DNA of 64,000 bases from Escherichia coli O127:H6 str. E2348/69. Its GTDB lineage: Bacteria; Pseudomonadota; Gammaproteobacteria; Enterobacterales; Enterobacteriaceae. The stretch lies in assembly GCF_000026545.1 (NCBI RefSeq), contig NC_011601.1; one strand, given 5' to 3'. How positions within the stretch are numbered: position 1 is the stretch's first letter; every line of letters begins with the position of its first letter. The position numbers are program-made. Shown here in pieces: positions 27,701 through 30,700 of the stretch.

Positions 27701-30700
27701 GAGGTTGCTGGCTGGGAACACGATCTTCATGCTGCAATGAACAACATTCAGGAAGAAATCGAATTAGTTGGTGAGAATGCGGCGAGCATTGATGCTTATG
27801 CTGCCAGTGATCCTGCTGAATGTTTTGCCGTACTTTCTGAATATTTCTTTAGCGCCCCAGAACTTTTTGCTCCTCGTTTCCCTTCATTGTGGCAACGTTT
27901 CTGTCAATTTTATCAACAAGATCCTTTGCAGAGACTGCATCACGCTAATGATACAGACTCGTTTTCGGCGACGAATGTTCATTAATTAACAACTTTGCAG
28001 ATTAATTAACCAATTGAAATGGCTTATGAAATTTAGTGTTGACAGACAAGGTACCGCTAAGTAATATGCGCCCCGTTCTCACGATTCCTCTGTAGTTCAG
28101 TCGGTAGAACGGCGGACTGTTAATCCGTATGTCACTGGTTCGAGTCCAGTCAGAGGAGCCAAATTCTAAAGATTCGCTTTTTTAGCGCAATGTCACTGCT
28201 CTTAGTTGAGCATTGCTTTTTAACGGATAGCGGGTTTTTGACATCTTAAGCGCCCTCAATCTTCATGGTTGAGGGCGTTTTGCTATGAACGCCATCACCA
28301 TTTTCCCCTCGATTATAAAACTTGAGTAATTCAGTAGTCTCCCCTCTTGCAACTCACACCCAAAACTGCTTAACGAAAAGTTATTAATTTTCAATCATAT
28401 TGCTATCAGGATCTACTTTTTTTCGCTGTGCTAGAAAGGGCGCATTTATGTTAGCTCGTTCAGGGAAGGTAACCGTGAAGGTTACTGGCAACTCAAGCAC
28501 CGCCCATGTTGCTAGCTTTATCGCTGATCCATCGACTATCGCCGCCACCAACAGTGATTTAAGTACCTTAAAGGCAACGGTTGAGGATGGCAGTGGTAAC
28601 CTGATCGAAGGTCTCACTGTGTACTTCGCCTTAAAAAGCGGCTCCACCACATTAACGTCATTAACAGCAGTGACCGATCAAAACGGAATCGCGACAATAA
28701 GCGTGAAAGGAGCGATAACGGGGAGCGTCACTGTAAGCACAGTCACAAGCAAACAGTAGATATATCGCTAGTGGCAGGCCCAGCAGACGCCTCGCAGTCC
28801 ATCCTTAAGAACAACCAGTCATCACTGAAAGGGGACTTTACCGATAGTGCTGAGCTACATCTTGTTCTGCACGATATATCAGGCAATCCGATCAAAGTTT
28901 CTTAAGGGATGGAATTTGTGCAATCAGGTACAAACGTGCCCTATATGAAAATTAGCGCAATTGATTACAGTCAAAATATCAACGGTGATTACAAAGCTAC
29001 TGTTACAGGAGGCGGAGAGGGTATCGCAACGCTGATCCCCGTATTGAATGGTGTTCATCAGACGGGCCTGAGTACCACGATAGAATTCATTAGCGCGGAA
29101 ACCAGACCAATGACCGGTACAGTGTCAGTGAATGGTGCAAACCTACCGACAGCTTCATTCCCTTCGCAGGGATTTACCGGGGCGTATTATCAGTTGAATA
29201 ATGACAGCTTTGCACCAGGAAAAACGGCGGCTGATTATTTGTTTCAAGCTCGGCCTCCTGGGTAGGCGTTGATGCTACTGGTAAAGTGACATTCAAAAAT
29301 GACGGTGATAGCAATACTGTAATAATCACAGCGCCCCCAAGATCCGGTGGTGCTATTTACCAAACAGTTCCGCATGAATCGCGTTCGGTGTGACTATGAT
29401 CATTTTCGGTGAGTATTGCTTTGCTCCAAAGGCTGGTTTTCTGTGATGATTGACCAGCCTCAGAGTATTGATGACACTACCGTTCATAACAGATCGGCAT
29501 TACTATGCATAAGTACTGCCTCAAATTCTCGCCAAAACACTTTTTAATGCCTTTGCGAATTCATCCAGACTTATATTGTCAATTTTTTGCCCAACGATGA
29601 CTGACTCCGAAACATCGGCCATTGCGGGCCATCGCGTTTTGTAATCAGCATAAATTGCAACAACAGGGGTATTATAGGCACTTGCCATATGTAATATTGA
29701 GGTGTCAGGAGTTATTGCAATATAAGCATCTTTTATGATTGCTGCTGAACGTTTAATCGAGGGTGATAAGGATAAACGGTAGACATTATTATAACAATCC
29801 ACTAATGCCCTGGCTTTATCTTCCCCTTTGGGTCCATAAACGATCACTATTGGCATATCTGTTTCACTTTGAATTTTTGCTATTAGATTTTCTGCAATCG
29901 ATAATGAAAATGTACGTTCCTGCGAGCTACCTTCTAAATTGAGCGCAATGTAAGATCCTAACGATCGCATTTCCTCGCGTACCTCATCGAGTACATCATC
30001 GCTTAATGGCAATTCATATATTGACCTGACTGCCGGAAAACCCGCCTCACGCATCATAAATGCCCATGTCATGGGTACAGGAGCCCGGAGATTCTGATCC
30101 ATCCGGGACGCGTTATTACACAAAGGGGAATAGCACTTCATGGTTAAACCGACGACCTGGAAATTCGTTTTTGCTTTCAACTGACTGATAAATATCATCG
30201 TTTTCAGGTTCTTTTTACGCATCGCCTCTATACAAAGATCCGGCGTACCGTATTGCAGTGTTATGTTCTTCGCTAAATCTTTTATTTCTTTTAATATTGC
30301 GTGATCCTGCATAGTCATTGTGACTAATGTTAATTTAGTCTGTTCAAGTTTGAGCACATTAAAGACTTCTAAATTAATTGTCGACGTAACAATTAATAGA
30401 TGCTTAATTTTATGCAATTCAAGCGCCCGAATAACAGGAAAGATGGCCATAGCATCGCCAATCTGATCGGGAATATGTATGACAACAAAGTCTGTTTTTT
30501 CAATATTAAAATTATAAGCTTTATAATCGTAGTAACTAAATGCAATACGTCTCAACAATGATACTAAAAACATAACTAACCTCGCCTCCCTACTGGTTAT
30601 AATGCAATGCAGTCTATCAGAATCATCAGGGTGCAATTTTGTGCATATGCGGACTTTTATGTTTCATATCTCGAACCTGTGGGTCCTCTGCTTAATCCTT

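What the first reader, a model, noticed from the sequence alone, without database searches (positions are those of the whole stretch)
28162..29400. Adhesin gene yeeJ reduced to short Ig-like-domain fragments
Where K-12 has a multi-kb adhesin gene after asnT, only about 1 kb encoding two Ig-like-domain pieces remains. This suggests a large deletion at a second tRNA-Asn-associated locus, a region prone to rearrangement.
Basis: partly seen in the sequence, partly recalled or inferred. Interest (0 to 1): 0.3.

Follow-up and report, generated by a model that had tools for sequence, protein, structure and literature searches.

The report
Dead remnant of adhesin gene yeeJ
In this enteropathogenic E. 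coli strain the 7-kb surface-adhesin gene yeeJ is reduced to an 889-base, multiply broken pseudogene next to a tRNA-Asn gene, which is an ordinary, already annotated case of gene decay.

Summary
The window is 100% identical to E. coli E2348/69 (EPEC O127:H6). Downstream of asnT (28086-28161), K-12 has the 7,020-bp inverse-autotransporter adhesin gene yeeJ. This strain keeps only 28472-29360 (889 bp), matching YeeJ residues 1930-2229 of 2339 in three reading frames.

Five lesions were mapped:
- a 5,847-bp deletion (junction 28471/28472, 2-bp microhomology) that removes the start codon, signal peptide, LysM, beta-barrel and nearly all Ig repeats;
- a 13-bp deletion at 28748;
- a TAA nonsense codon at 28903-28905;
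- a 1-bp deletion at 29241;
- a roughly 0.44-kb 3' deletion that removes the C-type lectin domain, stop codon and terminator.

What survives is one Big_1 domain and one split Invasin_D3-like domain.

The link to tRNA-Asn is positional only. The 310 bp after asnT are ungapped and colinear with K-12. No att-like tRNA repeat, integrase or IS lies at either junction. The junctions point to illegitimate recombination.

RefSeq already annotates the pseudogene, and frequent yeeJ truncation beside asnT is published (PMC5595812). Only 1,665 of 5,426 complete genomes keep at least 80% of yeeJ. Low interest; already known.

The parts
28086..28161 (+). tRNA-Asn(GUU), asnT
   Evidence: ARAGORN; Rfam tRNA 72.6 bits; K-12 synteny
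28162..28471 (+). Intact asnT-yeeJ intergenic and yeeJ upstream region. It includes an ATG at 28448 that is in frame with yeeJ in K-12.
   Evidence: Window 28000-28472 aligns ungapped to K-12 L001 4464-4936 at 96.4%. The sequence was read directly.
28471..28472 (+). Junction of deletion 1. K-12 L001 4937-10783 (5,847 bp) is missing. The microhomology is 2 bp (AA). The left end lies 2 bp before the MATKK start codon of yeeJ.
   Evidence: The two BLASTN segments overlap by 2 bases. Junction sequences were compared. The same junction occurs in 16 near-identical genomes and 3 divergent ones.
28472..28747 (+). yeeJ fragment A: YeeJ residues 1930-2021, one Big_1 Ig-like domain lacking its last strand
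   Evidence: TBLASTN 92.6% identity; Pfam Big_1 E 2.5e-16, profile positions 3-77 of 93
28748..28749 (+). Site of a 13-bp deletion (GCGCAGGTGGAAT present in SC477 and Y5) that shifts the frame. It is specific to the E2348/69 lineage.
   Evidence: Pairwise and multiple alignments
28750..29241 (+). yeeJ fragment B: YeeJ residues 2027-2191. It carries an Invasin_D3-like Ig domain plus the start of the D4-like region, interrupted by TAA at 28903-28905 (GAA in K-12 and Y5).
   Evidence: TBLASTN 85.5% identity with an internal stop; Pfam Invasin_D3 halves, profile 1-39 and 55-96; alignment
29241..29242 (+). 1-bp deletion in a T run (second frameshift), shared with B2 strain Y5 but not with SC477
29244..29360 (+). 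yeeJ fragment C: YeeJ residues 2192-2229, in a third frame
   Evidence: TBLASTN 74% identity
29361..29369 (+). Junction zone of deletion 2. About 0.44 kb of K-12 (L001 about 11673-12125) is missing: codons about 2230-2339 (C-type lectin domain), the stop codon and the terminator hairpin. The deletion is shared with SC477 and Y5.
   Evidence: BLASTN segments; alignment; Pfam Intimin_C and Invasin_D4 are present in the K-12 C-terminus only
29521..30573 (-). Neighbouring family-9 glycosyltransferase gene (yeeL), intact here and convergent with the remnant. It serves as a synteny anchor.
   Evidence: RefSeq annotation. The translation has 350 aa with no stop, whereas K-12 yeeL has an in-frame stop.

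Best explanation
The interval holds a non-functional pseudogene remnant of the inverse-autotransporter (type Ve) adhesin gene yeeJ in EPEC strain E2348/69. It arose by stepwise decay. A 3' deletion removed the C-type lectin domain, stop codon and terminator; this lesion is shared with the B2-type allele seen in the B2 strain examined here (Y5). A 5.8-kb microhomology-mediated (illegitimate) deletion then removed everything from 2 bp upstream of the start codon to codon 1929. A nonsense mutation and two small frameshifting deletions followed. No signal peptide, LysM domain or beta-barrel remains, so no surface adhesin can be made. The lesions and their distribution among genomes are shown. The order of events, the deletion mechanism and the lack of function are inferred.
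For: 100% identity to E2348/69, where RefSeq annotates 28466-29360 as a pseudogene: 'frameshifted; internal stop; incomplete; missing N-terminus and C-terminus'. Collinearity with K-12 on both sides, with two gaps of 5,847 bp and about 0.44 kb. YeeJ residues 1930-2229 are recovered in three frames with one internal stop. No other part of YeeJ or of the deleted DNA is anywhere in the 64-kb window. Only 2 bp of microhomology lie at the junction, and the two end regions show no extended similarity (local score 18 against a shuffle mean of 18.0). Lesions are nested among relatives. SC477 has both large deletions and the TAA but lacks the 13-bp and 1-bp deletions. Y5 (HPI-positive B2) has the 3' deletion and the 1-bp deletion but other 5' lesions. 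The junction is identical in 16 independent complete assemblies, so it is not an assembly artefact. Decay of yeeJ is common: 1,665 of 5,426 genomes keep at least 80% of it. The literature reports 35-40% intact and frequent truncation (PMC5595812, PMC6714894).
Against: Deletion 1 happens to be in frame with an upstream ATG at 28448, giving a 103-codon ORF (28448-28759) behind the retained yeeJ upstream region, so expression of a short Ig-domain peptide cannot be excluded. The 1-bp T-run deletion is shared with Y5 but not SC477, so either it is homoplasic or recombination has shuffled lesions, and the inferred order is not unique. The true size of deletion 1 when it happened is unknown, because the ancestor may already have carried internal deletions like those of Y5.
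Confidence: 0.93

Rival explanations
1. The deletion is a by-product of mobile-element activity at the asnT attachment site, for example imprecise excision or loss of the High Pathogenicity Island or another asnT-integrated element that took most of yeeJ with it.
For: asnT is the HPI integration site. In B2 strain Y5 the HPI (fyuA, ybt genes) lies between asnT and a truncated yeeJ. The authors of PMC5595812 speculate that proximity to asnT explains the truncations. An asnW-integrated island is present 6 kb away in this window.
Against: The 310 bp after asnT are ungapped and colinear with HPI-free K-12. In Y5 this stretch and the first 275 nt of yeeJ are absent downstream of HPI, so the E2348/69 arrangement cannot be derived from a Y5-like one by deletion. 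Copies of the asnT 3' end occur in the window only in the three tRNA-Asn genes and at 35271-35292, none near the remnant. No integrase or IS remnant is annotated between asnT and the GT9 gene. The left junction is 311 bp from the tRNA.
Confidence: 0.04
2. The remnant is not dead. The in-frame fusion ORF 28448-28759 (103 aa, essentially one Big_1 domain) is expressed from the retained yeeJ promoter and has acquired a function.
For: Deletion 1 is in frame with an upstream ATG. Two independent deletions of similar extent in other lineages (O139:H1, ST540) are also in frame. The Big_1 match is strong.
Against: There is no signal peptide or beta-barrel, so an Ig-like passenger domain would stay in the cytoplasm. 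The E2348/69 ORF ends because of a lineage-specific 13-bp deletion that cuts off the last strand of the domain (Pfam profile 3-77 of 93). The rest of the remnant carries a nonsense codon and a further frameshift, which is typical of neutral decay. Three of three in frame has a chance probability of about 0.04, and only two of them lie within the annotated CDS. The promoter scan found nothing above the shuffle expectation.
Confidence: 0.02
3. The short locus is an assembly collapse of a repetitive Ig-domain gene.
For: The authors of PMC5595812 warn that repetitive adhesin genes have been misassembled (upaH).
Against: The identical junction appears in 16 independent complete genomes from different laboratories and hosts and in 3 diverged genomes. 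The left junction lies in unique non-repetitive upstream DNA. A collapse would not remove the start codon, the beta-barrel and the LysM region.
Confidence: 0.01

Closest known systems
yeeJ (b1978) of E. coli K-12 MG1655, inverse autotransporter adhesin (type Ve secretion; Martinez-Gil et al. 2017, PMC5595812)
   Same: Same chromosomal position between asnT and yeeL/shiA. The remnant aligns to codons 1930-2229 (89% nucleotide identity; 74-93% amino-acid identity). It has the same Big_1 and Invasin_D3 domain types.
   Different: It lacks 5,847 bp that include the start codon, signal peptide, LysM, beta-barrel and nearly all the Big_1 repeats. It also lacks the C-type lectin domain, stop codon and terminator, and carries two frameshifts and a nonsense codon.
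Truncated yeeJ of HPI-positive phylogroup B2 strains (e.g. strain Y5, NZ_CP013483.1)
   Same: 97.6% identical over 28471-29700. It shares the 3' deletion of the lectin domain and the 1-bp T-run deletion, and it is also annotated as a pseudogene.
   Different: Y5 retains about 2.4 kb of yeeJ (nt 276-607 of the gene plus about 2.1 kb of 3' Ig repeats) and has HPI upstream instead of the native intergenic region. It lacks the E2348/69 deletion-1 junction, the TAA and the 13-bp deletion.
yeeJ remnants of SC477-type environmental isolates, O139:H1 pig strains and ST540
   Same: All are about 0.9-1.3 kb 3' remnants directly after the yeeJ upstream region. SC477 shares both large deletion junctions and the TAA with the window.
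   Different: O139:H1 (K-12 5029/10726, GGTA microhomology) and ST540 (K-12 5031/10830, TATC microhomology) have different junctions and keep the lectin domain. SC477 lacks the 13-bp and 1-bp deletions and has its own 10-bp insertion.

Membership tests
yeeJ orthologue (by descent) | Conserved position between asnT and yeeL-shiA-amn | tested here: met
   Flanks are colinear with K-12 at 96-97% identity; annotation
yeeJ orthologue (by descent) | Best sequence match is to yeeJ rather than to another Ig-repeat gene | tested here: met
   TBLASTN joint E about 1e-133 to YeeJ 1928-2229, whereas the other internal repeats reach only 30-38% identity. Genome hits are annotated yeeJ or Ig-like pseudogene.
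Functional inverse autotransporter (type Ve secretion: intimin/invasin/YeeJ) | N-terminal signal peptide | tested here: not met
   Deletion 1 removes codons 1-1929
Functional inverse autotransporter (type Ve secretion: intimin/invasin/YeeJ) | LysM peptidoglycan-binding domain and 12-stranded beta-barrel translocator | tested here: not met
   No match to YeeJ residues 1-1927 (other than weak repeat cross-hits) anywhere in the 64-kb window
Functional inverse autotransporter (type Ve secretion: intimin/invasin/YeeJ) | Passenger of tandem Big_1/Ig-like domains in one open reading frame | tested here: not met
   Only one Big_1 domain and one split Invasin_D3 domain remain, spread over three frames with an internal stop
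Functional inverse autotransporter (type Ve secretion: intimin/invasin/YeeJ) | C-terminal C-type lectin-like domain | tested here: not met
   Deletion 2 removes codons about 2230-2339. Intimin_C and Invasin_D4 are detected in the K-12 C-terminus but not in the window pieces.
tRNA-associated genomic island scar (integrase-mediated) | Direct repeat of the tRNA 3' end, or an integrase remnant, at the rearrangement boundary | tested here: not met
   The 22-mer of the asnT 3' end (up to 3 mismatches) occurs only in the tRNA genes and at 35271-35292. No integrase is annotated between asnT and the GT9 gene.

The most novel reading that the evidence does not exclude
yeeJ may be collapsed repeatedly and independently by about 5.7-5.8-kb in-frame deletions that join the first few codons (or the in-frame upstream leader) to the penultimate Ig domain. 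Three separate junctions fit this pattern: the E2348/69 and SC477 type, O139:H1, and ST540. That could reflect selection for a specific outcome, either loss of a surface-exposed adhesin or antigen or production of a short Ig-domain product, rather than random decay.
Probability: 0.05. Interest if true: 0.35.

Novelty: already known. Interest (0 to 1): 0.08.

Why it matters
It matters little beyond bookkeeping. It shows that the prototype EPEC strain E2348/69 cannot make YeeJ, so biofilm or adhesion phenotypes in this strain cannot involve that adhesin. It adds a base-pair-resolved example to the published observation that yeeJ is intact in only about a third of E. coli. It also shows that, in this lineage, the loss was an ordinary microhomology deletion and not a tRNA- or island-mediated event.

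Tried and rejected
- Another RNA or small gene in the interval: the Rfam gathering scan of 26300-30900 found only the two tRNAs.
- Promoter and terminator scan of 28100-29600: counts did not exceed the shuffle expectation, so it was uninformative.
- Homology-driven recombination between the two ends of deletion 1: the local alignment score equals the shuffle mean, so this was rejected.
- Integrase- or att-mediated deletion: no att-like repeat lies near the remnant, and the native intergenic region is retained where HPI-positive strains lack it.
- Translocation of the missing part elsewhere in the window: none found.
- A naturally short gene: rejected by synteny and by the three-frame alignment to the YeeJ C-terminus.
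- A literature search combining yeeJ with 'E2348/69' failed on term syntax and was not repeated. The yeeJ paper (PMC5595812) does not mention E2348 by name.
- Two family scans failed because of stop codons or an off-by-one coordinate. The first was redone correctly.

Full report
**Identity of the window.** The interval 28162-29520 is 100% identical to the chromosome of E. coli E2348/69, the prototype EPEC O127:H6 strain (NZ_CP059840.2, reverse strand). The local gene order is msrPQ, zinT, tRNA-Ser(CGA) 27005-27094(-), mtfA, tRNA-Asn asnT 28086-28161(+). Next come a pseudogene annotated 'invasin domain 3-containing protein; frameshifted; internal stop; incomplete; missing N-terminus and C-terminus' at window 28466-29360, a family-9 glycosyltransferase gene 29521-30573(-), then shiA, amn and yeeN. 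In K-12 MG1655 the same position holds yeeJ (b1978), 7,020 bp and 2,339 aa, annotated as an inverse autotransporter adhesin.

**Check of the observation.** BLASTN of window 28000-29700 against the K-12 locus gives three colinear segments:
- 28000-28472 matches K-12 L001 4464-4936 (96.4%, no gaps);
- 28471-29350 matches 10782-11672 (89.2%);
- 29370-29700 matches 12126-12456 (96.7%).

TBLASTN with K-12 YeeJ recovers residues 1928-2021 (92.6% identity), 2027-2191 (85.5%, with an internal stop) and 2192-2229 (74%) in three different frames, with a joint E of about 1e-133. The other Ig repeats of YeeJ reach only 30-38% identity. Pfam finds Big_1 (E 2.5e-16) in the first piece and the two halves of an Invasin_D3-type domain on either side of the stop. 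In the K-12 C-terminus it additionally finds Invasin_D4 and the Intimin_C lectin domain. The refuting scenario of a different, naturally short gene is excluded.

**Anatomy of the lesions.**
1. Deletion 1. K-12 L001 4937-10783 (5,847 bp) is absent. The junction is at window 28471/28472, reading ...GGGAAGGTAA|CCGTGAAGG..., with a 2-bp AA microhomology. The left end lies 2 bp upstream of the MATKK start codon of yeeJ, which is 59 bp upstream of the current RefSeq start. The right end lies at codon 1930. The deletion removes the start codon, signal peptide, LysM domain, beta-barrel and nearly all Big_1 repeats.
2. A 13-bp deletion after 28748 shifts the frame. It is absent from SC477, Y5 and K-12.
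3. GAA has become TAA at 28903-28905. This change is shared with SC477 but not with Y5.
4. A 1-bp deletion in a T run at 29241 causes a second frameshift. It is shared with Y5 but not with SC477.
5. Deletion 2. About 0.44 kb (K-12 about 11673-12125) is replaced by a short junction zone at 29361-29369. This removes codons about 2230-2339 (the C-type lectin domain), the stop codon and the terminator hairpin. It is shared with SC477 and Y5.

No part of the deleted DNA or protein is found elsewhere in the 64-kb window.

**Mechanism.** The two ends of deletion 1 share no similarity beyond the 2 bp. The best local alignment of the 300-bp end regions scores 18, against a shuffle mean of 18.0. The left end lies in unique upstream DNA, so this is not recombination between Ig repeats. 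The most likely mechanism is illegitimate, microhomology-mediated deletion; this is an inference.

**Link to tRNA-Asn.** The link is positional only:
- The 310 bp downstream of asnT are ungapped and colinear with K-12.
- A 22-mer of the asnT 3' end, allowing 3 mismatches, occurs only in the three tRNA-Asn genes and at 35271-35292, which marks the far end of an island inserted at asnW.
- No integrase or IS remnant lies between asnT and the GT9 gene.
- In the HPI-positive B2 strain Y5, HPI (ybt genes, fyuA) sits after asnT, and the native intergenic region plus the first 275 nt of yeeJ are missing. The E2348/69 arrangement therefore cannot derive from a Y5-like state by loss of HPI.

The two alleles are nonetheless related: 97.6% identical, with deletion 2 and the T-run deletion shared. 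This points to a common, already damaged B2-type allele.

**Population context.**
- The exact deletion-1 junction occurs in 16 complete genomes at 99.7% identity or more, from human, monkey, pig and dog. These include three other O127:H6/E2348-type assemblies.
- It also occurs in 3 environmental genomes (SC477 type) at 96% identity. Assembly collapse is therefore excluded.
- Two further lineages carry independent deletions of nearly the same extent. O139:H1 pig strains join K-12 5029 to 10726 with GGTA microhomology. ST540-type strains join K-12 5031 to 10830 with TATC microhomology.
- All three junctions are in frame with the yeeJ reading frame, with a chance probability of about 0.04. However, my query could only detect deletions of this general shape, so I treat this as a curiosity and not a result.
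- Across the collection, only 1,665 of 5,426 genomes keep at least 80% of K-12 yeeJ. The evenly spaced listing shows many other truncation classes: 3036-7077, 3199-7077, 1-3520, 276-6692 in three pieces, and 1-1952.
- This agrees with published figures of 35-40% intact yeeJ, and with the published remark that location next to asnT may explain frequent truncation (PMC5595812, PMC6714894).

**Function.** A type Ve adhesin needs a signal peptide, a beta-barrel translocator and a contiguous passenger. This requirement follows from established knowledge of intimin, invasin and YeeJ (PMC5595812). None of these remain, so the remnant cannot produce a surface adhesin. The only residual possibility is a 103-codon ORF (28448-28759) formed by the in-frame fusion of an upstream ATG to the surviving Big_1 domain. 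That ORF lacks any export signal. It is truncated inside the domain by the lineage-specific 13-bp deletion and is followed by further inactivating lesions. I give it about 2%.

**Verdict.** The loss comprises two deletions plus three point lesions, and the large deletion is an ordinary microhomology event, not a tRNA- or island-mediated one. The feature is already annotated as a pseudogene in RefSeq, and the phenomenon is described in the literature. It is of low interest.

Noticed in passing
window 35271-61137: A roughly 25.8-kb integrative element is inserted at asnW (61062-61137, minus strand). It is bounded by a perfect 22-bp copy of the tRNA 3' end at 35271-35292. It carries a tyrosine integrase, a HEPN/DUF262 pair, a second decayed integrase, an MvdC/MvdD-type ATP-grasp gene, PilV and type 4 pilin genes, a MobQ relaxase pseudogene, RepL, a PIN-domain gene and an H-NS-like gene.
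   Followed up: partly
window 29521-30573 (- strand): The family-9 glycosyltransferase gene yeeL is intact here (350 aa), whereas K-12 yeeL has an in-frame stop (Q to * at codon 235). So E2348/69 has a dead yeeJ and a live yeeL, and K-12 has the reverse. GT9-type heptosyltransferases glycosylate some autotransporter adhesins (Aah and TibC, from memory). A functional link between yeeL and yeeJ was not tested.
   Followed up: partly
window 26336-26557: yodB (cytochrome b561) is absent. A 222-bp stretch replaces 995 bp of K-12 (L001 2027-3021) between zinT and serU.
   Followed up: partly
L006 2741-2744 (O139:H1 W13-16) and L007 2743-2746 (ST540): These are independent yeeJ deletions with 4-bp microhomologies (GGTA, TATC). 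Their left ends lie within 2 bp of each other, at codons 11-12 of yeeJ, and their right ends lie 104 bp apart. Both are in frame, as is the E2348/69 junction relative to an upstream ATG. The clustering may be an ascertainment effect of the 301-bp query.
   Followed up: partly
window 28471-29350: The yeeJ remnant is only 89% identical to K-12, while the flanking genes are 96-97% identical. Divergence is concentrated at 29058-29350, the tip-proximal part of the passenger. This could reflect relaxed constraint or an old divergent adhesin allele in phylogroup B2.
   Followed up: no
L005 (SC477, NZ_LR778152.1) 68-904: In the SC477-type environmental genomes a DUF6387 gene lies next to serU. The same family of gene sits at the yeeN-proximal end of the asnW island in E2348/69. 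This suggests a related element integrated at a different tRNA.
   Followed up: no
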